From a bacterium (GTDB lineage Bacteria > Bacillota > Clostridia > Oscillospirales > Butyricicoccaceae), in contig CAVCGL010000001.1 of NCBI GenBank assembly GCA_963601915.1, positions 60,649-124,648 on the forward strand: DNA of 64,000 nucleotides, given 5' to 3'. The notes beneath the pieces are model-generated. The model saw only the letters and a program-made list of their open reading frames with translations. It was not told the DNA's origin and did not search any database. Positions 16,179 to 48,450 of the stretch are shown piece by piece. The stretch's first letter is position 1; each line of letters starts with the position of its first letter. The position numbers and the translations under genes are program-made.

Positions 16179-16204
16179 AAGAAATACTTAGATATAAAAA
16201 TGCA

Positions 16205-18740: not shown

Positions 18741-18783
18741 AAGAAAGTACATGACAAATTGACGCATGTTTTGTAAAGATACA

Positions 18784-18819
18784 GCGGGGACGGGTCATGT
18801 ACCGGTTCCCGCTTTTTTT
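18784..18819 (+). terminator. Intrinsic terminator between ilvN and ilvD (attenuator candidate)
   Basis: GCGGGGACGGG-loop-CCGGTTCCCGC (11 stem positions: 9 Watson-Crick pairs, one G:U, one mismatch) followed by T7. Ends 37 nt before the ilvD ATG. Confidence 0.7.
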
Positions 18820-18856
18820 ATCGCGGCGGCGCACTGCCGCCTTGGAGGTGCTTTTC

Positions 18857-30986: not shown

Positions 30987-31568
30987 TCAATCAAATGAAC
31001 GAATGATCTCCTCTGCGATGTCGCGCTTCGACTGCCGATAATCCATCGCTTTTTTCTCAATGTACGAATGGGCTTCGTCCTCGCTCATATGTTTTTCTGC
31101 AATGAGCAGGCATTTTGCCCGGCTGACAATGCGCAGATCCTCCAATCGCTGGCGCAGCTGACGGTTTTCCTTTTGCAGCGCGTAGATGCGCTGGCGAACG
31201 GAATTGACCAGATGCAGCGATTGATAAAAGACTGCGCGGGAGATCGGTTTTGTCACGACGACCACGCCGTCCTGCTCCACGCGTTCGGAGACAGAATTGG
31301 CGAGATCCGCCTTGACCAGCATCAGCACACCGGATAGTGTGTTCTGACAGGCATACGATGCAAATTCGTGACCGAATTCATCGGTCAACGGCGCATTGAT
31401 GATGATGAGATCCACATTATTTTCAATGAGCCTGCGTCGAGCTTCGTTGCAGGAAGCGGCAGCAAGAATACGATCCGGATGCCAACCGCTGCTGTGAATC
31501 AGATCAATCAACATGTCCGCACTTTTTTTGGATGCGGTTACGAGTAAGACATTTTCCAATTCAGACAC
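30987..31568 (-). CDS. ANTAR-domain antiterminator with pseudo-receiver N-terminal domain
   Basis: C-terminal ANTAR pattern LRIVSRAKCLLIAEKHMSEDEAHSYIEKKAMDYRQSKRDIAEEII. The N-terminal receiver-like fold lacks the acidic pocket. The start is either GTG 31568 or, better spaced from GGGAGG, TTG 31559. Lies 43 nt downstream of glnA. Confidence 0.85.
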   Translation of the reverse strand: MSELENVLLVTASKKSADMLIDLIHSSGWHPDRILAAASCNEARRRLIENNVDLIIINAPLTDEFGHEFASYACQNTLSGVLMLVKADLANSVSERVEQDGVVVVTKPISRAVFYQSLHLVNSVRQRIYALQKENRQLRQRLEDLRIVSRAKCLLIAEKHMSEDEAHSYIEKKAMDYRQSKRDIAEEIIRSFD

Positions 31569-31610
31569 CTCCCTGTAACTGATATACGATACAATTTGCG
31601 GAGGATGTCA

Positions 31611-32933
31611 TTAGTAAGAATAAAAATATAACGAGTCGATGACGGAGGATTTATCCAGCGCATCGGAGTAGCGGTTCCACTCGCTGGTCTTTGCAGCGAG
31701 GTACGCGTTCAAAATCTTTTCCGGCAGAGCCTGACGGACAAACTCACTGTCCTGTGCGGCGCGAATGGCCTCCATCAGCGAATTTGGCAGGCAGTCGTAT
31801 TCGCGTACCATAGAAGTCGGTACGTCGTACAGATTGAGATTGCACGGATCGCACAGCTTCAGCTCGCGCTGAATGCCCTCCATACCTGCGCGGATGAGCA
31901 GGGAGAAGGCAAGGTACGGATTGGCGCATGGGTCTGGCGAGCGCAGCTCCATGCGATTGTTGACGCCATGTGCTGCCGGAATGCGGATGAGCTGAGAGCG
32001 GTTTTGATGGCTCCAGGTGATATAGCGCGGTGCTTCGTAGACGCCGAGACGCTCATACGAATTGACGAGCGGGTTCAAAAAGGCGGACATCTCGTAGCAG
32101 CGGGTTAAGATACCCATGATAAAGCTCTCTGCTACCGGAGAGTGCTCGTCGCCCTCGCCGTGAAAGACGTTTTCGCCGTTTTGGAACAGGGATAAATTGA
32201 TGTGCAGACCGTTGCCCGGATGATCGCGGTAGATTTTTGGCAGGAACGATGCGTACAGACCGTTTGCCGCTGCCATCGTCTTGACCACGCCGCGGAAGGT
32301 GATGAGATTGTCTGCGGCGGTAACCGCGGAATCGTAAGCGAAATCAATTTCGTTCTGACCCGGGCCGGTCTCATGGTGAGAAGCCTCCGGACGCAGATTC
32401 ATTTCCTCCAGCGTCAGACAAATCTGACGGCGGACATTTTCACCCTTGTCCAGCGGGGCGATGTCCATGTACGAGGCGTTGTCGTGCGGCTCCTTGGTCG
32501 GCAGACCTTCTTCGTTTTGCTTGAGCAGATAAAACTCGCATTCCGTGCCGATTTTGACGGAATAACCGAGCTTTTTCATGTCGGACTGTGCCTGACGCAA
32601 AACCTGACGGGCATCGCACTCAAACGGTGTGCCGTCCGGATATTTGATGTCACAGAAGAAGCGCACAACGCGTCCCTGTGACGGACGCCACGGCAGAACG
32701 GAAAGGGTAGATGGCTCTGGGAATAACAGCAGATCCGAGCGTCCGGCGTTGGAAAAGCCGCGGATAGACGAAGCGTCAATCGAAATGCCCTCGCGGAAGG
32801 CGCGGGACAGCTCGCGCGGCATAATGGAAATATTTTTTTGCGTGCCAAAAATATCACAGAACGCCAGACGAATGAATTTGACGTCATTTTCTGTGATATA
32901 CTGCATGACTTCCTGAAATGTATAGGTATTCAT
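31611..32933 (-). CDS. glnA: Glutamine synthetase, type I
   Basis: AGGAGGAG RBS and ATG 32933. DVKFIRLAFCDIFG, GTECEFYL, SHHETGPGQNEIDF, GNGLHINLSL and NRMELRSPD. Confidence 0.95.
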   Translation of the reverse strand: MNTYTFQEVMQYITENDVKFIRLAFCDIFGTQKNISIMPRELSRAFREGISIDASSIRGFSNAGRSDLLLFPEPSTLSVLPWRPSQGRVVRFFCDIKYPDGTPFECDARQVLRQAQSDMKKLGYSVKIGTECEFYLLKQNEEGLPTKEPHDNASYMDIAPLDKGENVRRQICLTLEEMNLRPEASHHETGPGQNEIDFAYDSAVTAADNLITFRGVVKTMAAANGLYASFLPKIYRDHPGNGLHINLSLFQNGENVFHGEGDEHSPVAESFIMGILTRCYEMSAFLNPLVNSYERLGVYEAPRYITWSHQNRSQLIRIPAAHGVNNRMELRSPDPCANPYLAFSLLIRAGMEGIQRELKLCDPCNLNLYDVPTSMVREYDCLPNSLMEAIRAAQDSEFVRQALPEKILNAYLAAKTSEWNRYSDALDKSSVIDSLYFYSY

Positions 32934-32949
32934 GACTCCTCCTGAAATA

Positions 32950-32994
32950 AAAACGGAAACGGACAGCAGGTAAAAAAGAGCAAACCTGCTGTCC
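32950..32994 (-). terminator. Perfect 10-bp hairpin plus U-rich tail between gltD and glnA
   Basis: Minus strand: GGACAGCAGG-14 nt-CCTGCTGTCC followed by GTTTCCGTTTTTATTT. May act as the gltBD terminator and/or as a 5' stem of the glnA mRNA. Confidence 0.55.
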
Positions 32995-32998
32995 ATTT

Positions 32999-33007
32999 AT
33001 TATAGCA
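32999..33007 (-). promoter_or_regulatory. Extended -10 element TGCTATAAT upstream of glnA
   Basis: Minus strand reads GTGCTATAAT. No good -35 was seen. Confidence 0.45.
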
Positions 33008-33053
33008 CGAATGCGTCTGCGTGCCTATGCAGACAGTGTGCTGTTTTCGGGGG

Positions 33054-34538
<1,485 letters not shown>

Positions 34539-34553
34539 GATTCTCGTCCTCCT

Positions 34554-37500
34554 TTATCCGTTCACAGATGCGTAGAATGCATCAATTTCAGCCTGTTCGT
34601 GGCTCAGACCCTTTTCTTCCGACTTTGCAATTGCCTTGAGCATTCTGTTGTAGTCGTTCGGCATGATCTTCTTGAAGAACGGGATGTAGCTCTGGAAATT
34701 ATCGAGAATTTCCTTGCCCTTGCGGGAGCCGGTTGCAGCGACATGCTGCTCAATCAGGCTCTTCAGCTCCTGAATATCATGCTTCTCTCGAACGGTGGAG
34801 ATCGTTACCATGGACTTGTTTGCACGCAGATACAGATCGCGGTGCATATCCAGTACATATGCAATGCCGCCGGACATGCCTGCTGCAAAGTTCTTGCCGG
34901 TAGGACCGAGAACGACAACGCGGCCGCCGGTCATGTATTCACAGCCGTGATCGCCAACGCCTTCGACAACAGCGACAGCACCGGAGTTACGCACGCAGAA
35001 GCGCTCGCCGGCAACACCGGAGATAAATGCCTTGCCTGCGGTTGCGCCGTAGAAGGCAACGTTGCCGATGATGATGTTGTCCTCTGCGCGGAACTGGCTG
35101 CCCTTCGGCGGGTAAACGACAATCTTGCCGCCGGACAGACCCTTGCCAATGTAGTCGTTGGAGTCACCCTCCAGTTCCATCGTCAGGCCCTGCGGAATGA
35201 AGGCACCGAACGACTGACCGCCGCCGCCGTAGCACTTGATACGGTAGGTATCTTCCGGCAGGGAAGAGCCGTGCAGGCGGGTGATTTCACTGCCGAAGAT
35301 GGTGCCGAGGGCGCGGTCTGTCGAGCTGATTTTCAGTTCAATGGACTGCGGCTTGCCGGACTTCAGATTCTTGCCCATCTTCTTGAGGAAGACGGATTCA
35401 TCTACGGTATTTTCCAGATGGAAATCATAGACATTCTTCGGGTCAAAGTGGCGCTCCGGTGCATCGACATACGGATTGTCGAGGATCATAGACAGGTCAA
35501 CCGTGTCTGCACGACCGATGCGCATGTTCTTGCGGCGCTCCAGCTTATCGCTGCGGCCAACCATTTCGTCAATGGTATGGAAGCCCAGACCAGCCATGAT
35601 TTCACGCAGCTGGCGAGCAATGAACAGCATGTAGTTCTGTACGTGCTCCGGCTTGCCCTGGAACCGTGCGCGCAGCTTCGGGTTCTGCGTGGCAATGCCC
35701 ATCGGGCAGGTATCCAGATTGCATACACGCATCATAGCGCAGCCCATGGCAATCAGCGGGCCGGTGGCAAAGCCGAATTCCTCTGCGCCCAGCAGGCAGG
35801 CAATGGCAACGTCACGACCGGTCATCAGCTTGGAGTCTGCTTCGATGACCACGCGGGAACGCAGACCGTTCTGAATCAAGGTCTGATGGGTTTCTGCAAC
35901 ACCCAGCTCCCACGGCAGACCGGCATTGTGAATCGAGCTCTTCGGCGCTGCACCGGAACCGCCGTCATAGCCGGAAATCAGGATAACCTGTGCGCCGCCC
36001 TTGGCAACGCCTGCGGCAATTGTGCCGACACCAGCTTCGGATACCAGCTTGACATTGATGCGCGCCTTTCTGTTGGCGTTTTTCAGGTCATAAATCAACT
36101 GAGCCAAATCTTCAATAGAGTAAATATCGTGATGCGGCGGAGGAGAAATCAGTGCCACGCCCGGCGTAGAGAATCGGGTCTTGGCAACCCACGGGTAAAC
36201 CTTCTTGCCCGGCAGGTGGCCGCCTTCGCCCGGCTTTGCGCCCTGTGCCATCTTGATCTGGATTTCATCGCCGCTCATCAGGTACTGCGAGTTGACACCG
36301 AAACGACCGGAAGCAACCTGTACAATGGAGCAAGCGCGCTCTGTGCCGTAACGGTCAGCAGGCTCGCCGCCCTCGCCGGTGTTGGAGTGACCGCCCAGAC
36401 GGTTCATGGCAATTGCCAGACACTCGTGGGCCTCCGCAGACAGACAGCCATAGGACATTGCTGCGGTCTTAAAGCGCTTGACAATCTCGTATTCGCTTTC
36501 TACTTCTTCAATCGGAATCGCCGTGCTCTCGTCGAACTTAAAGCTCATCAGGCCGCGCAGCGTGTGCGGAATCGCAGCGTCATCCACGGTTTCGGCGTAC
36601 TGCTGGTAAATGCTGTAGTCGCCGGTGCGGACAGCTTGCTGCAGCAGCGCAATGGTCTTTGGATTGTACAGATGATCTTCGCAGCCGATACCTGCGCGGT
36701 ACTTGTGGGTACCGGGGGAGTCGAGCGTGGTATCAATAGCCAGACCCAGCGGATCAAACGCATGATTGTGACGGAACTCAACGACTTCGCCGATTTCCTC
36801 CAGACCGATGCCGCCGACGCGGGATACGGTGTTGGTGAAGTATTCGTCAATGACTTCCTTTTTGATGCCGATTGCCTCAAAGATCTGTGCGGACTGATAC
36901 GACTGGATGGTCGAGATACCCATCTTGGATGCGATCTTGACGATGCCCTTCAAAACAGCCTTGTTGTACGAATCAATGGCAACCGAAACTTCCTTGTCGA
37001 GCAGTCTCTTTTCGACCAGCTCTGCGATACATTCCTGTGCCAGATACGGGTTGACAGCGGATGCGCCGTAGCCCAGCAGGGTGGCAAAATGATGTACTTC
37101 GCGCGGCTCTGCGGTCTCTACGATAACGGACAGAGAGGTGCTCTTCTTGGTGCGTACCAGATACTGCTGCAGAGCGGAAACAGCGAGCAGCGATGGAATC
37201 GCAACGTGGTTTTCATCCACACCGCGGTCGGACAGAATCAGGATGTTTGCGCCGTTGCGGTATGCGCGGTCGGCAGTGACAAACATGCGGTCAATCGCAC
37301 GCTTCAGCGGTGTGTTCTTATAATACAGCATGGAGATCGTCTGAACCTTAAAGCCCGGCTTATCCATGTTTTTAATCTTCATCAGGTCGATGTCGGTCAG
37401 AATCGGATTCTGAATGCGCAGCATACTGCAGTTTTCCGCGTTCTCGCTGAGCAGGTTGCCGTCATGACCGAGGTATACGGCGGTATCCGTGACGATTTCC

Positions 37501-39104
37501 TCACGAATGGCGTCGATTGGCGGGTTGGTAACCTGCGCGAACAGCTGCTTGAAGTAGCTGAACAGCGGCTGATGCTTTTCGGACAAAACAGCCAGCGGAA
37601 TATCCACGCCCATTGCAGCGGTCGGCTCTGCGCCGGTCTGTGCCATTTGCAGGATAGAATCCTTGACCTCTTCGTAGGTGTAACCAAATGCCTTGTACAG
37701 GCGGTCGCGCTCCTCGCTGGAGTAGCGGCGGATGTGATGGTTCGGAATCGGCAGATCCTTGAGCATCAGCAGGCTCTGATCCAGCCATTCGCCGTACGGC
37801 TGACGGGTTGCGTAGTGCTCTTTCAGCTCATCATCGTCAATCAGACGGCCGGAGACGGTATCAACCAGCAGCATTTTGCCCGGCTGCAAACGGGACTTTA
37901 CAGCGATCTTCTCCGGTTCCAGCTCCAGCACGCCGACCTCGGAGGACAGAATCAGCTGATCGTCTGTGGTGACATAGTAACGGGACGGGCGCAGACCATT
38001 TCGGTCAAGAACAGCACCCATGACATCACCGTCTGTAAAGATAATCGATGCCGGGCCGTCCCACGGCTCCATCATGGTTGCGTAATAGCGATAGAAGTCC
38101 AGCTTCTCACGCGGCATACTCTTGTTGTTCGACCACGGCTCCGGAATGCAGATCATGACTGCCATCGGAAGCTCCATGCCGTTCATGACGAGGAATTCCA
38201 GCGTGTTGTCCAAACGCGCGGAGTCGGAACCTGCCGGATTGACAACCGGATATACCTTGTCGAGATCCTCTTCGCTCATGACGTCGGATTCCATCGTCTC
38301 TTCACGGGCGAGCATACGGTCTGCGTTGCCGCGAATTGTGTTGATTTCGCCGTTGTGCAGGATGAAACGGTTCGGATGGGCGCGTTCCCAAGACGGATTG
38401 GTGTTGGTAGAGAAACGGGAATGTACCATGGCAATCGCGGACTTGTAATCCTCGTCCAGCAGATCGCAGTAGAAGTTGCGCAGCTGACCGACAAGGAACA
38501 TACCTTTATATACGATGGTACGGCTGGAGAACGAGACAACATAGGTGTTGTCGTTGGACTGCTCAAAGACGCGGCGTGCCACGTACAGTTTGCGGTCGAA
38601 GTCCAGACCCTTGTTTACATTTTTCGGGCGAGCGACGAAGCCCTGCTCGATGTATGGCATACAGGCGAGCGCCTTGTTGCCCAGAACATCCGGATTGATC
38701 GGCACGGTACGCCAGCCGAGGAATTCCATGCCTTCCTTTTCAATGATGACCTCGAACATCTTCTTTGCCTGCGAACGCTTGAGAGTGTCCTGCGGGAAGA
38801 AGAACATGGCGATGCCGTAATCGCGCTCTTCGCCAATCTGGATGCCGGCCTCAGCGGCAGCCTTGGTGAAGAAGTTGTGGGAAATCTGAAGCATAATGCC
38901 GACGCCGTCGCCGGTCTTGCCCTCCGCGTCCTTACCGGCGCGGTGCTCCAGCTTTTCTACAATAGATAGTGCATTATCAACTGTTTGATGTGTCTTTCTG
39001 CCTTTAATATCGACAACTGCGCCGATGCCGCAGGCATCATGCTCATACCGCGGATCGTACAGACCGCGGGCAGGCATTGTAGTTTCAGTTCTGATCTCGT
39101 TCAT
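34554..39104 (-). CDS. gltB: Glutamate synthase large subunit
   Basis: GGAGG RBS and ATG 39104 (the listed TTG at 39113 is less likely). Ntn-amidotransferase start EHDACGIGAV, FMN/FeS central domain and the C-terminal GXGG-repeat domain. Confidence 0.96.
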   Translation of the reverse strand: MNEIRTETTMPARGLYDPRYEHDACGIGAVVDIKGRKTHQTVDNALSIVEKLEHRAGKDAEGKTGDGVGIMLQISHNFFTKAAAEAGIQIGEERDYGIAMFFFPQDTLKRSQAKKMFEVIIEKEGMEFLGWRTVPINPDVLGNKALACMPYIEQGFVARPKNVNKGLDFDRKLYVARRVFEQSNDNTYVVSFSSRTIVYKGMFLVGQLRNFYCDLLDEDYKSAIAMVHSRFSTNTNPSWERAHPNRFILHNGEINTIRGNADRMLAREETMESDVMSEEDLDKVYPVVNPAGSDSARLDNTLEFLVMNGMELPMAVMICIPEPWSNNKSMPREKLDFYRYYATMMEPWDGPASIIFTDGDVMGAVLDRNGLRPSRYYVTTDDQLILSSEVGVLELEPEKIAVKSRLQPGKMLLVDTVSGRLIDDDELKEHYATRQPYGEWLDQSLLMLKDLPIPNHHIRRYSSEERDRLYKAFGYTYEEVKDSILQMAQTGAEPTAAMGVDIPLAVLSEKHQPLFSYFKQLFAQVTNPPIDAIREEIVTDTAVYLGHDGNLLSENAENCSMLRIQNPILTDIDLMKIKNMDKPGFKVQTISMLYYKNTPLKRAIDRMFVTADRAYRNGANILILSDRGVDENHVAIPSLLAVSALQQYLVRTKKSTSLSVIVETAEPREVHHFATLLGYGASAVNPYLAQECIAELVEKRLLDKEVSVAIDSYNKAVLKGIVKIASKMGISTIQSYQSAQIFEAIGIKKEVIDEYFTNTVSRVGGIGLEEIGEVVEFRHNHAFDPLGLAIDTTLDSPGTHKYRAGIGCEDHLYNPKTIALLQQAVRTGDYSIYQQYAETVDDAAIPHTLRGLMSFKFDESTAIPIEEVESEYEIVKRFKTAAMSYGCLSAEAHECLAIAMNRLGGHSNTGEGGEPADRYGTERACSIVQVASGRFGVNSQYLMSGDEIQIKMAQGAKPGEGGHLPGKKVYPWVAKTRFSTPGVALISPPPHHDIYSIEDLAQLIYDLKNANRKARINVKLVSEAGVGTIAAGVAKGGAQVILISGYDGGSGAAPKSSIHNAGLPWELGVAETHQTLIQNGLRSRVVIEADSKLMTGRDVAIACLLGAEEFGFATGPLIAMGCAMMRVCNLDTCPMGIATQNPKLRARFQGKPEHVQNYMLFIARQLREIMAGLGFHTIDEMVGRSDKLERRKNMRIGRADTVDLSMILDNPYVDAPERHFDPKNVYDFHLENTVDESVFLKKMGKNLKSGKPQSIELKISSTDRALGTIFGSEITRLHGSSLPEDTYRIKCYGGGGQSFGAFIPQGLTMELEGDSNDYIGKGLSGGKIVVYPPKGSQFRAEDNIIIGNVAFYGATAGKAFISGVAGERFCVRNSGAVAVVEGVGDHGCEYMTGGRVVVLGPTGKNFAAGMSGGIAYVLDMHRDLYLRANKSMVTISTVREKHDIQELKSLIEQHVAATGSRKGKEILDNFQSYIPFFKKIMPNDYNRMLKAIAKSEEKGLSHEQAEIDAFYASVNG

Positions 39105-39236
39105 GAAATACAATTCCTCCTAAAAAACCTTCACATGTATCATATATAATGTATAGCGGATGATGTTCTCTCGGCGTTTTGCAACTTTATTTGGTTCATC
39201 TTTCACGACATCGCGCAAAACAACCGGAGAAAAAGT

Positions 39237-39311
39237 AAAAAAGCGCCCATTCCAAAATAAATACTACCCAAAAGTGGTAAAAGTAGTACTTACTTTGGAA
39301 TGAACGCCTTT
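39237..39311 (-). terminator. Leader terminator of gltBD
   Basis: Minus strand: AAAGGCGTTCATTCCAAA...TTTGGAATGGGCGCTTTT long helix (with G:U pairs) ending in TTTTTTACTTTTT, about 130 nt upstream of the gltB ATG. Confidence 0.6.
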
Positions 39312-39317
39312 GTTCAT
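39300..39317 (-). promoter_or_regulatory. Hexaloop hairpin ATGAAC-AAAGGC-GTTCAT (candidate ANTAR-binding antiterminator element)
   Basis: 6-bp perfect stem and a loop with A1 and G4. The loop and 3' arm overlap the 5' arm of the leader terminator. Confidence 0.5.
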
Positions 39318-39324
39318 GTAACAT

Positions 39325-39353
39325 ATTCTATAATAAATGCAGGAATTCGTCAA
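39325..39353 (-). promoter_or_regulatory. Sigma-A type promoter TTGACG-17-TAGAAT for gltBD
   Basis: Minus-strand hexamers at 39353-39348 and 39330-39325. Confidence 0.6.
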
Positions 39354-39483
39354 GCATCCTGCAAAAAAATCTTCCGCCCAGAAACGATTTCATACAACTT
39401 GCATAGAAAGATTACTTAAAAAGAAGAAGGACTGGGCAAAATGTAAAAGTTGGTTCGGTAGGCAGAAAAGTTTGGAAAATTAG

Positions 39484-39512
39484 TTGACATGCGCTAAATC
39501 ACAGTCTATAAT
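39484..39512 (+). promoter_or_regulatory. Consensus sigma-A promoter TTGACA-17-TATAAT for glnN
   Basis: Hexamers at 39484-39489 and 39507-39512. The -10 is embedded in the palindrome GTCTATAATAGAC (39504-39516). Confidence 0.75.
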
Positions 39513-39523
39513 AGACATCGTAA

Positions 39524-39539
39524 ACAGCAACGGCGCTGT
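39524..39539 (+). promoter_or_regulatory. Hexaloop hairpin ACAGC-AACGGC-GCTGT (candidate ANTAR-binding antiterminator element)
   Basis: 5-bp stem and a loop with A1 and G4. The loop and 3' arm overlap the 5' arm of the glnN leader terminator. Confidence 0.5.
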
Positions 39540-39568
39540 GGATGTTATGTCCGCGGCGCCTATTTTTT
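39532..39568 (+). terminator. Leader terminator of glnN
   Basis: GGCGCTGTGGA-TGTTATG-TCCGCGGCGCC (11 bp including 2 G:U) followed by TATTTTTT, 88 nt before the glnN ATG. Confidence 0.65.
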
Positions 39569-39655
39569 ATACTCAGCAGGAGTAGAAAAGCATACGCTTG
39601 AGTAAGTTTGTTTGAAATCTTTTTTAAGATACACTGCATGGAGGTGCGTTGTACA

Positions 39656-41737
39656 ATGATTAATGTCCCGGAAATTTTCGGCGAGAACGTGTTTAACGAA
39701 AATGTAATGCGTGAGAAGCTGCCGAAGGAAGTTTTTAAGAAGCTCATGAAGACCATCGAATTGGGTGCTTCCCTCGATGTCAGCATTGCAAACGTTGTTG
39801 CAAACGCAATGAAGGATTGGGCTGTTGACAAGGGCGCAACCCATTACACCCATTGGTTCCAGCCGATGACCGGTGTGACCGCTGAGAAGCATGACTCCTT
39901 TATTAGCCCGACGGCAGGCGGCAACGTCATCATGTCGTTCAGCGGCAAGGAGCTGATTCAGGGCGAGCCGGACGCATCTTCGTTCCCGTCTGGCGGTCTG
40001 CGTGCAACGTTTGAGGCGCGTGGTTATACCGCATGGGATCCGAGCTCTTACGCTTTCGTCAAGGACGGTACCCTGTACATCCCGACCGCTTTCTGTTCCT
40101 ACACCGGCGAGGTACTGGATAAGAAGACCCCGCTGCTGCGCTCCATGGATGCAATCAGCAAGCAGGCTTGCCGCATTCTCAAGCTGTTCGGCAAGAATGT
40201 AGAGCGCGTTACTACGACCGTAGGTCCGGAGCAGGAGTACTTCCTCGTAGATAAGAAGTATTACGACCAGCGCAAGGATCTGGCATTTACCGGACGCACA
40301 TTGTTCGGCGCTATGAGCCCGAAGGGTCAGGAAATGGATGACCATTACTTCGGCACCATCAAGCCGCGTGTCGCAGCATTCATGGCAGATCTGGATGCTG
40401 AAATGTGGAAGTACGGCATTCTGGCAAAGACCAAGCACAACGAGGTTGCTCCGGCACAGCACGAGATTGCACCGATCTTCACCACCACCAATACGGCAAT
40501 CGACAACAACCAGCTGCTGATGGATGTTGCCAAGAAGGTCGCTCTCCAGCACGGCATGGTTTGCCTGCTGCATGAGAAGCCGTTCGACGGCGTAAATGGT
40601 TCCGGTAAGCACAACAACTGGTCGATGTCCACCAATCAGGGCGAGAACCTGCTGAATCCGGGCAGCGATCCGAAGGAAAATGCACAGTTCATGCTGATTC
40701 TGACCGCAGTTATCTCTGCTGTTGATAAGTATGCAAAGCTGATGCGTATCTCGGTTGCATCCGCTGGCAACGATCATCGTCTGGGTGCCAATGAGGCTCC
40801 TCCGGCAATCGTTTCCGTATTCCTCGGCGATGAGCTGCAGAGCATTGTCGATGACATCATCGCTGGCACGCACACCGCTGGCGCTGGCGCAGCAAAGATT
40901 CAGCTGGGCGTTACCACCCTGCCGGTATTCTCTAAGGACAACACCGACCGCAACAGAACCTCTCCGTTTGCTTTCACCGGCAACCGCTTTGAGTTCCGTA
41001 TGCCGGGTTCCTCTCAGAACATCGCTTGTGTCAACATGATGCTGAACACCGCTGTAGCAGATGTATTTAAGAGCTATGCCGATGAGCTGGAAGGCGCAGA
41101 GGACTTTGATGCTGCACTGAATGCTCTGGTTAAGCGTGAGATGACGGCTCATCAGCGCGTCATCTTTAACGGCAACGGCTACGACGACAGCTGGATTGAA
41201 GAGGCTGAAAAGCGCGGCCTGCCGAACCTGAAGAGCACACCGGAAGCACTGGCTTGCTATGATGAATTTATTGATGTCTTTGAGTCTACTGGCGTTCTGA
41301 GCGAGACCGAGCTGATGTCCCGTAAGGAAATTCTGCTGGAAGAGTATGCAAAGCTCATCAAGATTGAGTCCCGCACCATGGTAGATATGGCGAAGAAGGA
41401 CATTCTGCCGGCAGTTGGCTCTTACACCAAGGAGCTGTCCGAGATTGCCTGCAATAAGAAGCAGCTGGGCCTGGATGCTGAGCTGGAAATCAAGGAGCTG
41501 AAGAAGCTGTCCGCATTGGCTTCTGATACCTACGACAAGATCGAAGCACTGTCTGCTGCCATTGCAGGTGCCGATGCTGTCGAGGGCGTACAGGAAGCTG
41601 CAGACTATCAGCATGAGAACGTCATTCCGGCTATGGAGCAGCTGCGCACGGTTGCCGATGAGCTGGAAGTTAACACCGCTGCTAAGTACTGGCCGTTCCC
41701 AGCTTACGACAAGCTGCTGTTCGGTGTAAACAGCTAA
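39656..41737 (+). CDS. glnN: Glutamine synthetase, type III
   Basis: GGAGGTG RBS and ATG 39656; 693 aa. [44 protein letters not shown] and GSGKHNNWS are typical of GS-III. Confidence 0.95.
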
Positions 41738-41766
41738 TTGCTCGTTTGAACCCAATTTTATAACGC

Positions 41767-41780
41767 ACACAAAGACGTGT
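41767..41780 (+). promoter_or_regulatory. Hexaloop hairpin ACAC-AAAGAC-GTGT (candidate ANTAR-binding antiterminator element)
   Basis: 4-bp stem and a loop with A1 and G4. The loop and 3' arm overlap the 5' arm of the terminator in the glnN-amt spacer. Confidence 0.45.
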
Positions 41781-41822
41781 ATACCCAATTTCCGCACAGG
41801 AAGAGGTGTACACGTCTTTTTT
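41771..41822 (+). terminator. Terminator between glnN and amt
   Basis: AAAGACGTGTATAC...GTGTACACGTCTTT (14 bp, one G:U) followed by a T-run to 41822, 34 nt before the amt ATG. Confidence 0.7.
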
Positions 41823-41855
41823 GTTTCACAAATTCATTTGGAGGTTTATTCAATC

Positions 41856-43556
41856 ATGGATACCACGAACATTATGGCGATATTGGCAGATCATGCCTCC
41901 GCCATAGACACATCTTGGACGCTGCTCGGCGCGGCGCTCGTATTCTTTATGCAGGCAGGCTTTGCGATGGTGGAAACCGGCTTTACCCGTTCTAAGAACG
42001 CCGGCAACATTATCATGAAGAACCTAATGGACTTTTCGCTCGGCACACCGATTTATTGGCTGATTGGCTTTGGCATCATGTTCGGCGGCACCGGTGCTCT
42101 CATCGGCGGCTTCGACTTCATGACCAATGGCGGAGAAGGCGGTTTTACCACGCTGATTTTCCAGACCGTGTTCTGTGCAACCGCAGCAACCATTGTTTCC
42201 GGCGCTATGGCAGAGCGAACCAAGTTTAGCTCGTACTGCATCTATTCCATGGTCATCAGTGCGGTGATTTATCCGATCTCCGGTCACTGGATTTGGGGCG
42301 GCGGCTGGCTGTCTCAGCTCGGTTTCCATGATTTTGCCGGTTCCACCGCTGTACACATGGTTGGCGGCGTGGCTGCTCTCGTCGGTGCCGCTTTTCTTGG
42401 CCCGCGTATCGGCAAGTATGACAAGAACGGCAAGCCGAAGGCAATTCCGGGTCATTCCCTGACACTGGGCGCTCTGGGCGTATTCATTCTGTGGTTCTGC
42501 TGGTTTGGATTTAACGGTGCATCTACCGTTGCTATGACAAATGGTGCATATGAATCCGCAGCTTCTGTTTATGTCACAACAAATATGGCTGCTGCCGTTG
42601 CAACCGTTACGGTTATGTGTGTCACTTGGATTCGTTACGGCAAGCCGGATGTATCTATGACGCTGAACGGCTCTCTGGCTGGTCTGGTAGCAATTACTGC
42701 CGGTTGTGATTTGGTTACTCCGCTTGGCGCAGCAATCATTGGTATCTGCGCAGGCTTCGCTGTAGTATTCGGCATTGAATTCGTAGAGAAGGTACTCAAG
42801 ATTGACGATCCGGTTGGTGCTGTTGGCGTACATGGTGTCAATGGTGCACTGGGCACACTGCTGACCGGTCTGTTTGCAAAGGATCAGGGTCTGTTTTATG
42901 GCCACGGTGCACATTTCTTCCTGGTTCAGCTGCTCGGTGTCGTTTGCGTCATCGCTTGGGTTGCTGTGACCATGACCATTGTATTCTTCATCATCAAGCA
43001 CACCATCGGTCTGCGTGTATCCGAAGAAGAAGAGGTTCGCGGTCTGGATGTCATGGAGCACGGTCTGGTTTCCGCTTATGCAGACTTTATGCCGATTCCG
43101 ACTGTCAATGGCTTTTACAAGGAAGAAAAGACAAAGCAGACAGTGCCTGTCGAAGAAGCAATTCCGGCTACGGAAGTTCCGTCCACAAGTACAGACGGAC
43201 ACAAGCTGTCCAAGGTTGTTGTCATCTGCCGTCAGTCCCGTCTCGAAGTCCTGCGTGATGCGCTGGAGGAAATCGGCGTAGCAGGTCTGACCGTGACCAA
43301 TGTTCTTGGCTGTGGTGTAGAGAAGGGTGCAACCGAGTATTATCGCGGCGTTGCTGTCAGCACGAGCCTGCGTCCAAAGACGAAGGTAGAGATGGTTGTC
43401 AGCAAGGTTCCGGTAGAACAGGTTGTCGATACCTGCCGCAAGGTGCTGTATACCGGTCATATCGGTGATGGCAAGATCTTTATCTATGATGTACAGAACG
43501 TCATCAAGGTTCGTACCGGTGCCATCGGCTATGATGCGCTGCAGTACGAAGATTAA
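41856..43556 (+). CDS. amt: Ammonium transporter (Amt/MEP) fused to a C-terminal PII (GlnB/GlnK) domain
   Basis: GGAGG RBS and ATG 41856. Amt motifs FFMQAGFAMVETGF and DFAGSTAVHMVGG, then a linker, then a PII domain from about 43206 (GLTVTNVLGCGVEKGATEYYRG...GDGKIFIYDV). Confidence 0.92.
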   Translation: MDTTNIMAILADHASAIDTSWTLLGAALVFFMQAGFAMVETGFTRSKNAGNIIMKNLMDFSLGTPIYWLIGFGIMFGGTGALIGGFDFMTNGGEGGFTTLIFQTVFCATAATIVSGAMAERTKFSSYCIYSMVISAVIYPISGHWIWGGGWLSQLGFHDFAGSTAVHMVGGVAALVGAAFLGPRIGKYDKNGKPKAIPGHSLTLGALGVFILWFCWFGFNGASTVAMTNGAYESAASVYVTTNMAAAVATVTVMCVTWIRYGKPDVSMTLNGSLAGLVAITAGCDLVTPLGAAIIGICAGFAVVFGIEFVEKVLKIDDPVGAVGVHGVNGALGTLLTGLFAKDQGLFYGHGAHFFLVQLLGVVCVIAWVAVTMTIVFFIIKHTIGLRVSEEEEVRGLDVMEHGLVSAYADFMPIPTVNGFYKEEKTKQTVPVEEAIPATEVPSTSTDGHKLSKVVVICRQSRLEVLRDALEEIGVAGLTVTNVLGCGVEKGATEYYRGVAVSTSLRPKTKVEMVVSKVPVEQVVDTCRKVLYTGHIGDGKIFIYDVQNVIKVRTGAIGYDALQYED

Positions 43557-46941: not shown

Positions 46942-46970
46942 TTGACAAGTAACATTTGTTACGATACAAT
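46942..46970 (+). promoter_or_regulatory. Sigma-A promoter TTGACA-17-TACAAT for the hydrogenase gene
   Basis: Hexamers at 46942-46947 and 46965-46970. The spacer holds the palindrome GTAACA-TT-TGTTAC (46949-46962). Confidence 0.7.
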
Positions 46971-46974
46971 ACAT

Positions 46975-46992
46975 TTGTTAAGAATAAAACAA
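46975..46992 (+). promoter_or_regulatory. Rex-like operator candidate TTGTTAAGAATAAAACAA
   Basis: Matches 12 of the 14 specified positions of the remembered clostridial Rex box TTGTTAA-N4-TTAACAA. Located just downstream of the -10. Confidence 0.35.
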
Positions 46993-47022
46993 GCTCGCAT
47001 TTTGGGAAGAGGAGAGGCGTGC

Positions 47023-48450
47023 ATGAGAAGTTTTGAGACCGACGTCCAAAAAATAAAATATAAGGTACTTCGTGCAGTGGCGGAACACGCGCTGAACGAA
47101 AAAATGGAAGATGTATACTATTCCGTTCCGCTTGAGGTTATTCCGGGCAGAAAGCCGACGATGCGCTGTTGTATTTATAAGGAACGTGCAATTGTTGGTG
47201 AGCGCGTGCACACAGCGCTGGGCGGAGACCGCGGCGATAGCGTGATTCAGGTCATTGACATCGCCTGTGACGAATGTCCGGTAGATCGTTACACCGTCAG
47301 CAATGCCTGTCGTGGATGTCTGGCACATCGCTGCATGAAGGCCTGTCCAAAGGGCGCGATCAGCAGAACCAAATCCGGCAAGATGGAAATTGATCCGGAA
47401 AAATGCATTCACTGCGGACGCTGCGCAAAGGCCTGTCCGTATGAGGCAATTACCGAGAACGTTCGTCCGTGTGAGCGCGCCTGCAAGGTCGGCGCTATCA
47501 AGATGAATGACTTGCAGAAGGCTGAAATCAATTATGACAAGTGCATCAGCTGCGGTGCCTGCGTGTTCCAGTGTCCGTTTGGTGCAGTGATAGACAATTC
47601 TTCCATTGTCGATGCGATTAAGCTGCTTCAGCAGGCGGACCATCGCGGCTACTACACCGTGGCGATTGTCGCTCCGGCGATTGCCTCGCAGTTCAAGGGC
47701 GTCAAGCTGGGACAGGTCAAGCAGGCACTGCGCAACTTGGGCTTCCATGATGTTGTCGAAGCAGCACTCGGTGCCGATATGGTCGCAAAGAAAGAGTCTA
47801 AGGAGTTGGCGGAAAAGGGCTTCCTGACCTCTTCCTGCTGTCCGGCCTTTGTCAGCTACATCAAGAAGCACATGCCGGAAATGGCGGAGCATATCTCGCA
47901 CAACCTGTCTCCTATGGCGGAACTTGGCAAGTACGTCAAGGAAAACAGCGCATGGCCGGTGAAAACCGTATTTATTGGCCCATGTACCGCGAAGAAGGAA
48001 GAGCAAAAGCTGGAGCATGTCCGCCCGTGGGTAGACTGCGTGCTGACCTTTGAGGAAATGGTCGCGCTGCTGGATGCAGCGGACTGTGCACCGGAGGATC
48101 AGGGCGAATTGCCGATAAACGATGCTTCGTATTTTGGCCGTATTTTTGCTCGCTCCGGCGGTTTGACCGAAGCGGTTGTCGAGAGCATCAAGGAGCAGGA
48201 AATTGACTTTGAGCCGAAGGCAGCGGTTTGCAGCGGCATCGAACAGTGCAAGGTTGCTTTGCTCAAGGCAAAAATGGGCAAACTGGCGGAGAACTTTATC
48301 GAAGGCATGGCGTGTGAGGGCGGCTGCGTCAATGGTGCAGGTGCAATCAGTCATCTGCCGACGGATAAGCGCTCGGTAGATACTTTTGCAAAGACAAGCT
48401 CGAAGGACGGCGTCAATATGTCGGTCGGCAGCTACGAGACCAAATTCTAA
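47023..48450 (+). CDS. [FeFe]-hydrogenase, monomeric multi-FeS type
   Basis: GAGGAGAGG RBS and ATG 47023. H-cluster motifs TSSCCPAF (L1), GPCTAKKEE (L2) and EGMACEGGCVNGAG (L3), plus several N-terminal CxxCxxCxxxCP ferredoxin motifs. Confidence 0.88.
   Translation: MRSFETDVQKIKYKVLRAVAEHALNEKMEDVYYSVPLEVIPGRKPTMRCCIYKERAIVGERVHTALGGDRGDSVIQVIDIACDECPVDRYTVSNACRGCLAHRCMKACPKGAISRTKSGKMEIDPEKCIHCGRCAKACPYEAITENVRPCERACKVGAIKMNDLQKAEINYDKCISCGACVFQCPFGAVIDNSSIVDAIKLLQQADHRGYYTVAIVAPAIASQFKGVKLGQVKQALRNLGFHDVVEAALGADMVAKKESKELAEKGFLTSSCCPAFVSYIKKHMPEMAEHISHNLSPMAELGKYVKENSAWPVKTVFIGPCTAKKEEQKLEHVRPWVDCVLTFEEMVALLDAADCAPEDQGELPINDASYFGRIFARSGGLTEAVVESIKEQEIDFEPKAAVCSGIEQCKVALLKAKMGKLAENFIEGMACEGGCVNGAGAISHLPTDKRSVDTFAKTSSKDGVNMSVGSYETKF

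What the first reader, a model, noticed from the sequence alone, without database searches (positions are those of the whole stretch)
30987..43556. One-locus nitrogen-assimilation regulon apparently wired through RNA antitermination
Within 12.6 kb the minus strand carries gltB-gltD-glnA and an ANTAR regulator. Divergently, the plus strand carries glnN (type III GS) and an ammonium transporter fused to PII. The gltB, glnN and amt leaders share the same small element, C-AAAGGC-G, C-AACGGC-G and C-AAAGAC-G. In each case it forms a hexaloop closed by a C:G pair, and its 3' half is also part of an intrinsic terminator. I found no TGTNA-N7-TNACA (GlnR/TnrA-type) box in the 551-bp divergent region. 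glnA itself lacks the hexaloop element. Two GS isoforms, GOGAT, transporter, PII sensor and regulator in one block is an unusually complete arrangement.
Basis: partly seen in the sequence, partly recalled or inferred. Interest (0 to 1): 0.65.

Follow-up and report, generated by a model that had tools for sequence, protein, structure and literature searches.

The report
Single-hairpin ANTAR nitrogen regulon in Clostridia
A gut Butyricicoccus keeps its ammonium-assimilation genes behind small RNA hairpins that compete with transcription terminators and sit beside an ANTAR RNA-binding regulator; this is a known kind of switch, but each switch here has one hairpin instead of the textbook two.

Summary
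The gltB, glnN and amt leaders each carry a C-closed A-N-N-G-N-N hexaloop hairpin, and its loop and 3' arm are absorbed into a strong intrinsic terminator.

The same hairpin-plus-terminator unit recurs upstream of glnN, GOGAT/glnA, amt, gdhA, asnA/asnB and PII genes in about 160 loci from Clostridia. Stems are gene-specific and co-vary. The ANTAR gene lies directly after glnA in 97 of 101 loci.

This is the clostridial NitR-type ANTAR nitrogen regulon. That kind is already known from Stutz 2007 and Ramesh 2012, and the gene block is typical of Butyricicoccaceae, not unusual.

Three things differ from the textbook EutV system:
- **One hexaloop per terminator.** There is no upstream P1 hairpin (10% of 159 elements have a candidate, against an 11.7% background).
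- **Position at the transcript's 5' end.** The hairpin starts 5-12 nt after a near-consensus -10 box.
- **A pseudo-receiver.** Asn replaces the phospho-acceptor Asp in 97/106 and 111/118 family members, so the signal input is unknown.

glnA lacks its own hexaloop but lies downstream of the gltB leader and has its own internal promoter.

Verdict: a new variant of a known kind, interest about 0.5.

The parts
30987..31559 (-). NitR-like ANTAR regulator. It has a pseudo-receiver, a long helix and an ANTAR domain. The ORF lister starts it at GTG 31568; TTG 31559 is the likely start and gives 190 aa, as in the homologues.
   Evidence: Pfam ANTAR scores 59.4 bits. PDB relatives are Rv1626, EutV, AmiR and NasR. 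The AF2 model has pLDDT 92.4 and its best match is EutV bound to RNA, 6ww6_B, TM 0.79. Asn58 replaces the phospho-acceptor Asp.
31611..32933 (-). glnA, type I glutamine synthetase, 441 aa. It is co-transcribed with the ANTAR gene.
   Evidence: Pfam Gln-synt_N and Gln-synt_C. The start was corrected to ATG 32933, behind an AGGAGG ribosome-binding site. glnA lies directly upstream of the ANTAR gene in 71/74 and 26/27 loci.
32957..33027 (-). Internal promoter with an extended -10 (TGcTATAAT, 33027..32999), followed at once by the hairpin GGACAGCAGG...CCTGCTGTCC and a U-rich tail. It probably terminates the gltBD transcript and supplies a basal promoter and 5' stem-loop for glnA-ANTAR.
   Evidence: Promoter scan 10/12 with TG. 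Fold. The hairpin is conserved in L081, L084, L086 and L090-L092. TGnTATAAT directly before glnA is common in loci where GOGAT is inserted.
33054..34538 (-). gltD, the small subunit of glutamate synthase.
   Evidence: Pfam Fer4_20 and Pyr_redox_2.
34554..39104 (-). gltB, the large subunit of glutamate synthase (fused bacterial type).
   Evidence: Pfam GATase_2, Glu_syn_central, Glu_synthase and GXGXG. The likely start is ATG 39104, behind GGAGGA. Relatives carry a split five-ORF GOGAT at this position.
39237..39311 (-). Intrinsic terminator of the gltB leader, about a 30-bp stem plus U6. Its 5' arm is the hexaloop plus the 3' arm of the hairpin.
   Evidence: MFE -40.8 kcal/mol, z -10.1. Forcing the hexaloop hairpin leaves 12 nt unpaired before the U-run.
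39300..39317 (-). Hexaloop antiterminator hairpin of the gltB leader, ATGAAC-AAAGGC-GTTCAT.
   Evidence: -4.3 kcal/mol alone. The orthologous (AT)GAAC/GGAC-AANGGC-GTTC/GTCC hairpin precedes GOGAT or glnA in relatives.
39325..39353 (-). Sigma-70-type promoter of the gltB operon (TTGACG-17-TAGAAT). Its -10 ends 7 nt before the hairpin.
   Evidence: The same geometry holds in 125 of 159 elements.
39387..39406 (.). Conserved DNA block CTATGCAAGTTGTATGAAAT between the divergent promoters. It may be a transcription-factor site; its function is unknown.
   Evidence: CATACAACTTGCATAG is identical across the Butyricicoccus clade, and TTGCATAG is kept in Agathobaculum.
39484..39512 (+). Sigma-70-type promoter of glnN (TTGACA-17-TATAAT, 12/12).
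   Evidence: It is conserved in the alignment of 36 intergenic regions.
39524..39539 (+). Hexaloop antiterminator hairpin of the glnN leader, ACAGC-AACGGC-GCTGT.
   Evidence: -5.4 kcal/mol alone. ACAGC-AANGGC-GCTGT is conserved upstream of glnN in many genera.
39532..39568 (+). Intrinsic terminator of the glnN leader (GGCGCTGTGGAT...GTCCGCGGCGCC plus U6).
   Evidence: MFE -23 kcal/mol. Also found by the terminator scan, 13 pairs.
39656..41737 (+). glnN, type III glutamine synthetase.
   Evidence: Pfam GSIII_N, Gln-synt_C and Gln-synt_C-ter. 98% identical to a Butyricicoccus MAG.
41767..41780 (+). Hexaloop antiterminator hairpin in the glnN-amt spacer, ACAC-AAAGAC-GTGT. No promoter lies upstream, so it is an internal attenuator of a glnN-amt operon.
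   Evidence: -2.1 kcal/mol alone. ACAC-AAWGGC-GTGT is conserved before amt in relatives.
41771..41822 (+). Intrinsic terminator of the amt leader.
   Evidence: MFE -28.1 kcal/mol, z -7.8.
41857..43556 (+). Ammonium transporter fused to a C-terminal PII domain.
   Evidence: Pfam Ammonium_transp over residues 27-410 and P-II over residues 458-561 of the ORF.

Best explanation
This is a NitR-type ANTAR antitermination regulon for ammonium assimilation.

**Default state (shown in silico).** Transcripts that start at the gltB and glnN promoters, and transcripts that read from glnN into the amt spacer, fold into strong intrinsic terminators and stop after about 50-90 nt.

**Switch (inferred).**
- The ANTAR protein encoded at the end of the gltB-gltD-glnA operon binds, as a dimer, the small C|AANG(G/A)C|G hexaloop hairpin. 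This hairpin forms first, at or next to the 5' end of the nascent RNA.
- Binding holds the loop and 3' arm out of the terminator's 5' arm. RNA polymerase then reads through into gltBD(-glnA-nitR), glnN and amt-PII.
- Each terminator is opposed by a single hexaloop hairpin, not the P1+P2 pair described for EutV.

**Signal (inferred).**
- By analogy with C. saccharobutylicum NitR, the system is probably ON under nitrogen limitation.
- The regulator's receiver cannot be phosphorylated at the usual site, because Asn replaces Asp. The signal therefore probably arrives through a protein partner or a ligand.
- The gene that almost always accompanies it is glnA, which makes glutamine synthetase the leading candidate partner. 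This is speculative.

**Circuit.** Readthrough of the gltB leader also raises glnA-nitR, giving positive feedback. An internal TGnTATAAT promoter before glnA supplies basal regulator.
For: **The structure is real and the two folds exclude each other.**
- Searches show the hairpins and terminators.
- The hairpins alone are worth -2 to -5 kcal/mol. The terminators are worth -23 to -40 kcal/mol.
- Forcing the hairpin leaves 10-12 nt unpaired in front of the U-run.

**More than chance.**
- The window gives 3 strong hits against 0.73 in shuffles.
- The 80 ANTAR-anchored loci give 112 hits against 7 in shuffles over 1.35 Mb.

**Conservation and covariation.**
- The orthologous leaders of L081, L082 and L084 keep the hairpins.
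- Stems are gene-specific: ACAGC for glnN, GAAC or GGAC for GOGAT/glnA, ACAC for amt, and AAGGC/GUCUU with a G.U pair in Lachnospiraceae and Oscillospiraceae glnN leaders.
- In a set chosen by position only, 74.7% of cells are paired, against 58% in shuffles and 31-46% with the partner slid. The covariation score is 0.40 against 0.17, reached by 0 of 500 shuffles.

**Regulon content.** Downstream genes are glnN, GOGAT, amt, glnA, gdhA, asnA/asnB, PII and, once, pyrG.

**Link to the regulator.**
- The loops have A1 and G4, as in the ANTAR consensus.
- glnA-ANTAR adjacency holds in 97 of 101 loci.
- EutV residues K147, K149 and E160 are kept as R150, K152 and E163. Y164 is an invariant His here.
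- The model superposes on RNA-bound EutV with TM 0.79.

**Single hairpin at the 5' end.**
- 16 of 159 elements have any ANNGNN hairpin within the 45 nt upstream, against an 11.7% background.
- 125 of 159 have a promoter matching at least 10 of 12 positions, with its -10 ending 5-12 nt before the stem. In the window this is.
- Walshe 2022 showed that an EutV dimer contacts one hexaloop at a time.

**Pseudo-receiver.**

**Precedent.** NitR induces GS/GOGAT on nitrogen limitation (review PMC6316151). ANTAR motifs have been predicted before PII, amt, GS and GOGAT genes.
Against: - There are no expression, 5'-end or binding data of any kind. Transcription starts are predicted from promoter consensus only.
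- In the EutV system both hairpins were needed for antitermination (Ramesh 2012). Whether one hairpin is enough during transcription is untested.
- The amt hairpin has only 4 bp.
- The strict scan finds the element upstream of glnN in 18 of 26 ANTAR-linked loci and 11 of 32 others (p = 0.017). The local association is therefore modest. Genome-level co-occurrence could not be tested.
- Orthology with the experimentally studied NitR was not established.
- The direction of regulation and the sensor are by analogy only.
- A conserved DNA block between the promoters suggests additional, or alternative, control at initiation.
Confidence: 0.78

Rival explanations
1. The leaders are canonical dual-hexaloop ANTAR substrates, and the P1 hairpin was simply missed. 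It could have a degenerate loop, or the transcript could start further upstream.
For: Ramesh 2012 found both hairpins essential for EutV. Transcription starts here are only predicted. Some Lachnospiraceae and Oscillospiraceae glnN leaders carry two hexaloop units 60-180 nt apart.
Against: None of the three window leaders has a second ANNGNN hairpin of at least 3 bp. Across 159 elements, upstream candidates occur at the background rate (10% against 11.7%) and overlap the promoter hexamers. A near-consensus promoter sits at a fixed 5-12 nt from the stem. Where two units occur, each has its own terminator and U-run, so they are serial attenuators rather than a P1-P2 pair.
Confidence: 0.08
2. The inverted repeats are DNA operators for a DNA-binding nitrogen repressor of the GlnR/TnrA kind or an unknown one. 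The terminators are constitutive, and the ANTAR gene is a bystander.
For: The elements lie at about +1 to +20, a classic operator position. A conserved DNA block lies between the divergent promoters.
Against: - There is no GlnR/TnrA box.
- The conserved part is the asymmetric loop (AANGGC), not the arms. The arms differ between genes and change in a compensatory way.
- The commonest stem has a conserved G.U pair (AAGGC/GTCTT), which is a mismatch in DNA.
- The amt element lies in an intra-operon spacer with no promoter.
- The element always overlaps a terminator.
Confidence: 0.05
3. The hairpin-terminator units are regulated, but by something other than the adjacent ANTAR protein. Candidates are another RNA-binding protein, a small RNA, or a direct metabolite effect.
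For: No binding data exist. The receiver is atypical. Genome-level co-occurrence was not tested.
Against: The loops match the ANTAR recognition code, and the protein keeps the residues that contact G4. The gene is linked to the elements in about 100 loci. The element is too small (14-18 nt) to form a ligand pocket, and no Rfam family matches.
Confidence: 0.07
4. The elements are ordinary terminators or insulators, and the hexaloops are chance.
For: Short hairpins are common: 193 ANNGNN hairpins with at least 4 bp occur in the window.
Against: The combination with an overlapping strong terminator is rare (0.73 per shuffled window). It recurs before the same gene families in more than 100 genomes, with invariant A1, G4 and C:G closure.
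Confidence: 0.02

Closest known systems
NitR of Clostridium saccharobutylicum NCP262 (glnA-nitR and gltAB cluster; Stutz et al. 2007, known here only through review PMC6316151)
   Same: An ANTAR protein is encoded directly after glnA, next to the GOGAT genes. It is reported to antiterminate and induce GS/GOGAT under nitrogen limitation.
   Different: - Orthology was not tested and the original paper could not be read.
- That system also involves a glnA antisense RNA, which was not examined here.
- The window adds glnN and amt-PII as targets.
- The RNA target architecture and the pseudo-receiver described here are not in the text I could read.
EutV/EutW and the eut dual-hexaloop antiterminators of Enterococcus faecalis (Ramesh 2012; Walshe 2022, PDB 6WSH and 6WW6)
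   Same: - The protein architecture is the same (TM 0.79).
- The hexaloop has A1 and G4.
- The hairpin that overlaps the terminator plays the role of P2.
- The basic and acidic RNA-contact residues are conserved.
   Different: - There is no P1 hairpin.
- The hairpin sits at the transcript's 5' end.
- The loop is more constrained (A2, G5 and C6, closed by C:G).
- The receiver lacks the phospho-acceptor Asp and no kinase gene is adjacent.
- Tyr164 is replaced by His.
- The targets are ammonium-assimilation genes, not eut genes.
ANTAR nitrogen regulons predicted by covariance search (Desulfotomaculum, Carboxydothermus, Alkaliphilus, C. thermocellum and others; Ramesh 2012, Table S2)
   Same: The gene classes are the same (PII, amt, GS, GOGAT). 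An ANTAR gene next to GS is listed for Alkaliphilus and Carboxydothermus.
   Different: Those hits were found with, and defined as, a dual-hairpin model of 44-61 nt. The elements here are single 14-18-nt hairpins that such a model is not built to find.
AmiR/AmiC (Pseudomonas) and NasT/NasS
   Same: These are ANTAR proteins whose receiver-like domain is not phosphorylated. Their activity is set by sequestration through a sensor protein.
   Different: No AmiC- or NasS-like binding-protein gene is adjacent here. The constant neighbour is glnA. Sequence similarity to AmiR is weak (E = 1.6e-5).
GlnR/TnrA with feedback-inhibited glutamine synthetase in Bacillus
   Same: The regulator gene shares an operon with glnA, and the regulon covers GS, GOGAT and amt.
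   Different: Those are DNA-binding MerR-type proteins acting at TGTNA-N7-TNACA boxes. No such box is present here, and control is at the RNA level.

Membership tests
ANTAR-domain antiterminator proteins (PF03861) | ANTAR domain detected by the family HMM above its curated cutoff | tested here: met
   59.4 bits against a cutoff of 27.3, residues 136-189.
ANTAR-domain antiterminator proteins (PF03861) | Receiver-like alpha/beta domain, long dimerisation helix and C-terminal helical ANTAR bundle, as in EutV, Rv1626 and AmiR | tested here: met
   AF2 model with pLDDT 92.4. Foldseek gives 6ww6_B at E = 1.9e-11 and TM 0.79, then 1s8n and 1qo0.
ANTAR-domain antiterminator proteins (PF03861) | Residues that contact the hexaloop G4 in EutV (R142, K143/K147, K149, E160, Y164) | tested here: inconclusive
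   - K147 aligns with R150, K149 with K152 and E160 with E163. All three are invariant in the family.
- K143 aligns with R146.
- R142 aligns with L145.
- Y164 aligns with His167, which is invariant (203 of 224 sequences).

Sources.
ANTAR-domain antiterminator proteins (PF03861) | Binds leader RNA and prevents termination | not testable with these tools
   Needs EMSA and in vitro transcription.
Two-component ANTAR response regulators (EutV, PdtaR and GnfR type) | Phospho-acceptor Asp in the receiver and a cognate histidine kinase | tested here: not met
   - The position is Asn58 (DLIIIN, against DLVIMD in Rv1626).
- Asn is present in 97/106 and 111/118 family members.
- Pfam Response_reg scores 19.7 bits, below the 30.2 cutoff.
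- No kinase gene lies in the block.
Canonical ANTAR RNA substrate (dual-hexaloop motif, Ramesh 2012) | Hexanucleotide loop with A at position 1 and G at position 4, on a stem of at least 3 bp | tested here: met
   The loops are AAAGGC, AACGGC and AAAGAC, on stems of 6, 5 and 4 bp.
Canonical ANTAR RNA substrate (dual-hexaloop motif, Ramesh 2012) | The terminator-proximal hairpin (P2) overlaps the 5' arm of an intrinsic terminator | tested here: met
Canonical ANTAR RNA substrate (dual-hexaloop motif, Ramesh 2012) | Two tandem hexaloop hairpins (P1 and P2) joined by a short linker | tested here: not met
   There is no second hairpin in any window leader. Across 159 elements upstream candidates are at background, 10% against 11.7%. 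The promoter -10 ends 5-12 nt before the stem.
NitR system (C. saccharobutylicum) | ANTAR gene immediately downstream of glnA, with GOGAT genes in the same cluster | tested here: met
   The window order is gltB-gltD-glnA-ANTAR. The adjacency holds in 97 of 101 loci.
NitR system (C. saccharobutylicum) | Sequence orthology to the characterised NitR protein | not tested
   No NitR sequence was available. Clostridium sensu stricto members of the family exist (C. cuniculi L110; C. celatum P0135).
NitR system (C. saccharobutylicum) | Induction of GS/GOGAT under nitrogen limitation, dependent on the regulator | not testable with these tools
   Needs expression data.
GlnR/TnrA regulon | TGTNA-N7-TNACA operator in the promoter regions | tested here: not met
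   There is no match in 39105..39655. Two matches occur elsewhere in the window, against 0.54 expected by chance.
Any Rfam cis-regulatory family | Covariance-model match | tested here: not met
   The only gathering-level hit in the window is a T-box at 16196..16450. The E-value scan of the leaders gives only spurious miRNA-type hairpin matches.

The most novel reading that the evidence does not exclude
Clostridial NitR proteins form a very large, phosphorylation-independent ANTAR subfamily: at least 4,065 protein clusters, and at least 589 species genomes carry the Asn motif. In this reading they need only one hexaloop hairpin, placed at the very 5' end of the nascent RNA, to defeat a terminator during transcription. 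Their nitrogen signal comes from direct interaction with glutamine synthetase, which is almost always co-transcribed with them. That would be an RNA-level counterpart of the Bacillus GS-TnrA/GlnR circuit, and the master nitrogen regulator of many gut Oscillospirales, Lachnospirales and Clostridiales.
Probability: 0.25. Interest if true: 0.75.

Novelty: new variant of a known kind. Interest (0 to 1): 0.5.

Why it matters
Walshe et al. 2022 showed that an ANTAR dimer touches one hexaloop at a time. They asked whether single-hexaloop sites exist, and expected them only where a transcribing polymerase imposes no time limit. These leaders are natural single-hexaloop sites coupled directly to terminators. 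They are conserved in hundreds of Clostridia, with gene-specific stems and a fixed position at the transcript start. That makes the question testable with a handful of short RNAs and one 190-residue protein.

The result also outlines the probable main nitrogen-assimilation control circuit (GS I, GS III, GOGAT, Amt-PII, GDH and asparagine synthetases) of abundant butyrate-producing gut commensals, where no GlnR/TnrA or NtrC-type control is evident at these loci. It further flags an unexplained signal input, because the receiver carries Asn instead of Asp.

Tried and rejected
- **Rfam.** Neither the gathering scan nor the E-value scan finds a family for the element.
- **Exact-pattern scan of genome contigs.** About 1,000 chance matches are expected in 596 Gb, and many hits are in Proteobacteria and similar groups. 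It says nothing about breadth.
- **An 'unbiased' set defined as any ANNGNN at the foot of a terminator.** It gave 2,287 20-mers dominated by ordinary terminators with A-rich flanks, so it was useless for covariation. I replaced it with a set anchored by position only.
- **My own frame error.** The GlnA query used was shifted by one base. This gave spurious 29-39% identities and an adjacency of only 37-47 of 74. After correction the figures are 71/74 and 26/27.
- **ilvD leader hairpin (18771..18784, TTGT-AAAGAT-ACAG).** I rejected it as a fourth member. It has a U-A closing pair and overlaps its terminator by only 2 nt.
- **Literature.** Stutz 2007 is not held. Searches for NitR or for single-hexaloop ANTAR work in Clostridia found only Ramesh 2012, its commentary, Walshe 2022 and one review.
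- **Reaching the characterised NitR.** A second protein search with a Clostridium-type query returned no protein named for C. saccharobutylicum among the best 120.
- **Covariance model.** I did not build one. A 14-20-nt hairpin carries too little information to improve on the explicit hairpin-plus-terminator scan.

Full report
**Source and gene content.** The window comes from a Butyricicoccus species. Its GlnN is 98% identical to that of a Butyricicoccus MAG, and its ANTAR protein is 98-99% identical to proteins on two MAG contigs. On the minus strand lie gltB, gltD, a type I glnA and a 190-residue ANTAR protein. On the plus strand lie a type III glutamine synthetase gene (glnN) and an ammonium transporter with a C-terminal PII domain. 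dapF and pyrG follow the ANTAR gene. Reading the sequence moves several start codons: ANTAR TTG 31559, glnA ATG 32933, gltB ATG 39104, glnN ATG 39656 and amt ATG 41857.

Each of the three leaders has one hairpin with a six-base loop closed by C:G:
- gltB: ATGAAC-AAAGGC-GTTCAT, 39317..39300, minus strand.
- glnN: ACAGC-AACGGC-GCTGT, 39524..39539.
- amt: ACAC-AAAGAC-GTGT, 41767..41780.

In each case the minimum-free-energy fold of the whole leader is a long G+C-based stem followed by six U. That stem uses the loop and the 3' arm of the small hairpin as its own 5' arm. Energies are -40.8, -23.0 and -28.1 kcal/mol, and z-scores against shuffles are -10.1, -3.0 and -7.8. The small hairpins alone are worth only -4.3, -5.4 and -2.1 kcal/mol. 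If they are forced, 10-12 nt next to the U-run become unpaired, which should disable the terminator.

A scan of both strands of the 64-kb window for 'ANNGNN hairpin of at least 4 bp plus an overlapping terminator' returns these three with terminator stems of 13-28 bp. Five weaker hits have 6-9 bp. Shuffled windows give 0.73 hits. There is no TGTNA-N7-TNACA box between gltB and glnN, and glnA has no hexaloop hairpin of its own. Rfam has no family for the element.

**The element is conserved in orthologous leaders.** In 80 loci fetched through GlnN, about 55 carry a C-ANNGNN-G hairpin with a U-run upstream of glnN. In three closer relatives fetched through the ANTAR protein (78%, 57% and 54% identity), synteny is kept and all leaders keep their hairpins. 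In 80 further loci fetched through the ANTAR family, the hairpin-plus-terminator scan gives 112 hits, against 7 in shuffled copies of the same 1.35 Mb.

The stems are specific to the gene and conserved across genera:
- ACAGC/GCUGU before glnN.
- (AU)GAAC or GGAC before GOGAT or glnA.
- ACAC/GUGU before amt.
- AAGGC/GUCUU, with a conserved G.U pair, before glnN in many Lachnospiraceae and Oscillospiraceae.

The loop is much more constant. A1 and G4 were imposed by the scan. The frequent loops also share A2, G5 (81%) and C6 (80%).

To avoid circularity I anchored only on the glnN-type element. I then collected every C-AANGNN-G on the opposite strand within 400 nt, with no pairing requirement. 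In that set 74.7% of stem cells pair, against 58% in shuffles and 31-46% when the partner is slid. The covariation score is 0.40 against 0.17, reached by 0 of 500 shuffles.

The genes behind the elements are glnN, GOGAT, amt, glnA, gdhA, asnA/asnB, a PII gene and occasionally pyrG or purC. Together these form an ammonium-assimilation regulon.

**The regulator.**
- By sequence the protein resembles Rv1626/PdtaR, EutV, AmiR and NasR.
- An AlphaFold model (pLDDT 92.4) superposes best on RNA-bound EutV, 6ww6_B, with TM 0.79.
- Walshe et al. list EutV residues that contact the hexaloop G4. Of these, K147, K149 and E160 align with the invariant R150, K152 and E163. Y164 aligns with an invariant His.
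- The receiver domain is atypical. The phospho-acceptor Asp is Asn58, within a nearly invariant IIN-x-PL-x-DE-x-G motif. The N-terminal acidic pair is missing, and Pfam's receiver model scores below its cutoff.
- Asn occupies this position in 97 of 106 and 111 of 118 full-length family members found by homology search. A few distant members keep Asp.
- The family is large. A second protein search returned 4,065 clusters at E <= 1e-10.
- After I corrected a one-base frame error in my GlnA query, glnA lies immediately upstream of the ANTAR gene in 71 of 74 and 26 of 27 loci.

**What differs from the textbook ANTAR switch.** Ramesh et al. 2012 defined the ANTAR substrate as two tandem hexaloop hairpins, P1 and P2, and found both essential for EutV. 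Here there is one.
- None of the three window leaders has a second ANNGNN hairpin of 3 bp or more.
- Among 159 unique high-confidence elements, only 16 have any such hairpin in the 45 nt upstream. That equals the background rate for random 45-nt windows (11.7%), and those candidates overlap promoter hexamers.
- 125 of the 159 elements have a promoter matching TTGACA-N16-18-TATAAT at 10 or more of 12 positions, with its -10 ending 5-12 nt before the first paired base.
- In the window, the three best promoter-like sites in 12.8 kb are exactly those in front of the glnN hairpin (12/12), the gltB hairpin (10/12) and glnA.
- The hairpin is therefore predicted to begin within a few nucleotides of the transcript's 5' end. 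The amt element is the exception: it is an internal attenuator with no promoter of its own.
- Where two hexaloop units occur in one leader, each has its own terminator and U-run. They are serial attenuators.

Walshe et al. 2022 showed crystallographically that an EutV dimer contacts a single hexaloop. They proposed P1 as a recruitment site, and suggested that single-hexaloop sites might exist where a transcribing polymerase imposes no time constraint. These leaders are single-hexaloop sites that do face that constraint.

**Circuit.**
- In relatives the block is amt-PII <- glnN <- | -> (GOGAT) glnA ANTAR. GOGAT is either absent or a split five-ORF type. The fused gltB-gltD of the window is rare at this position.
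- Where GOGAT is absent, the GAAC-type leader directly precedes glnA-ANTAR (L082, L110, L141). So the statement that glnA lacks the element is an operon effect. glnA and the regulator lie downstream of the gltB leader, which implies positive autoregulation.
- Between gltD and glnA there is a TGcTATAAT promoter followed at once by a conserved hairpin, GGACAGCAGG...CCTGCTGTCC, with a U-rich tail. The hairpin is confined to the Butyricicoccus clade.
- A TGnTATAAT box directly before glnA is common wherever GOGAT is inserted. I read it as the source of basal glnA-regulator expression that bypasses the attenuator. This is inferred.

**Mechanism, and what is shown.**
- Shown in silico: the hairpin and the terminator exclude each other; the elements are conserved and their stems co-vary; they are linked to a regulator with an EutV-like fold; the regulon is made of nitrogen-assimilation genes.
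- Inferred: the ANTAR dimer binds the 5'-terminal hairpin and prevents termination. The ON state is nitrogen limitation, by analogy with NitR of C. saccharobutylicum as summarised in PMC6316151.
- Unknown: the signal input. The Asn receiver argues against phosphorylation and for control by a partner, as with AmiR-AmiC and NasT-NasS. Glutamine synthetase is the obvious candidate only because of gene adjacency.

**Rivals.**
- A missed P1 is unlikely.
- A DNA operator is contradicted by four points: the conserved asymmetric loop, the variable compensating arms, the G.U pair, and the promoter-less amt site.
- A different trans-acting factor cannot be excluded without binding data.
- A conserved DNA block between the divergent promoters (CATACAACTTGCATAG, 39387..39406) may add control at initiation.

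**Comparison with what is known, and novelty.** ANTAR control of nitrogen genes is established. Ramesh 2012 lists predicted motifs before PII, amt, GS and GOGAT genes, including GS-ANTAR pairs in Alkaliphilus and Carboxydothermus. NitR is a named clostridial example. The locus is therefore not a new kind of system, and its gene arrangement is typical of its family. Three features appear undescribed in the literature I could search:
- the single hexaloop at the 5' end of the transcript;
- the extended loop consensus with gene-specific stems;
- the family-wide Asp-to-Asn pseudo-receiver tied to glnA.

I could not read Stutz 2007, so some of this may be anticipated there. I rate the finding a new variant of a known kind, with interest about 0.5.

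Noticed in passing
window 39387..39406 (either strand): The block CTATGCAAGTTGTATGAAAT lies between the divergent gltB and glnN promoters, about 35-50 bp upstream of the gltB -35. CATACAACTTGCATAG is identical in all Butyricicoccus-clade relatives, and TTGCATAG persists in Agathobaculum. It may be a binding site for an unknown DNA-binding regulator. The spacing between the two divergent hexaloops is also nearly constant (226-243 nt) across genera.
   Followed up: partly
window 32957..33027 (minus strand): An extended -10 promoter (TGcTATAAT) is followed at once by the conserved hairpin GGACAGCAGG...CCTGCTGTCC and a U-rich tail, between gltD and glnA. The stem sequence is conserved in L081, L084, L086 and L090-L092, but the loop is not. 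The predicted start falls inside the 5' arm. The role is unclear: terminator of gltBD, stabilising 5' stem-loop for the glnA mRNA, or a second regulated site.
   Followed up: partly
window 34554..39104 and L081/L084 3460..8520: The window has a fused bacterial gltB plus gltD. Its closest relatives carry a split, archaeal-type five-ORF GOGAT (GATase_2, Glu_synthase, Fer4, Pyr_redox_2, GXGXG) behind the same leader, and L082 has none. The GOGAT module has apparently been swapped while the leader was kept.
   Followed up: partly
window 16196..16450 (+) and 16520..18187 (+): A T-box leader (Rfam RF00230, 120.6 bits) precedes an acetolactate-synthase-like TPP enzyme (ilvB-like).
   Followed up: partly
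window 18771..18820 (+): The ilvD leader (ilvD is 18857..20521) has a hairpin, TTGT-AAAGAT-ACAG, followed by a 9-bp terminator and U7. The loop fits A1/G4, but the closing pair is U-A and the overlap with the terminator is only 2 nt. It is probably a plain attenuator or terminator and not an ANTAR site. Relatives were not compared.
   Followed up: partly
L004-L007 (Ruminococcus flavefaciens group), about 6345 (+): In this group glnN has no element of its own. It follows amt and a PII gene, and the hexaloop-terminator unit sits before amt and before gltB. The same regulon is therefore wired through a different operon structure.
   Followed up: partly
L086 (CAVAJF010000022.1): A contig whose ANTAR protein is 99% identical to the window's and which carries the same leader elements is labelled 'Eggerthellaceae bacterium'. 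All other close relatives are Butyricicoccus or Clostridia, so this is probably a binning or labelling error in the public record.
   Followed up: no
window 46942..48450 (+): An [FeFe]-hydrogenase-like ORF (Fe_hyd_lg_C plus several 4Fe-4S domains) lies downstream of the block. It is unrelated to the finding.
   Followed up: no
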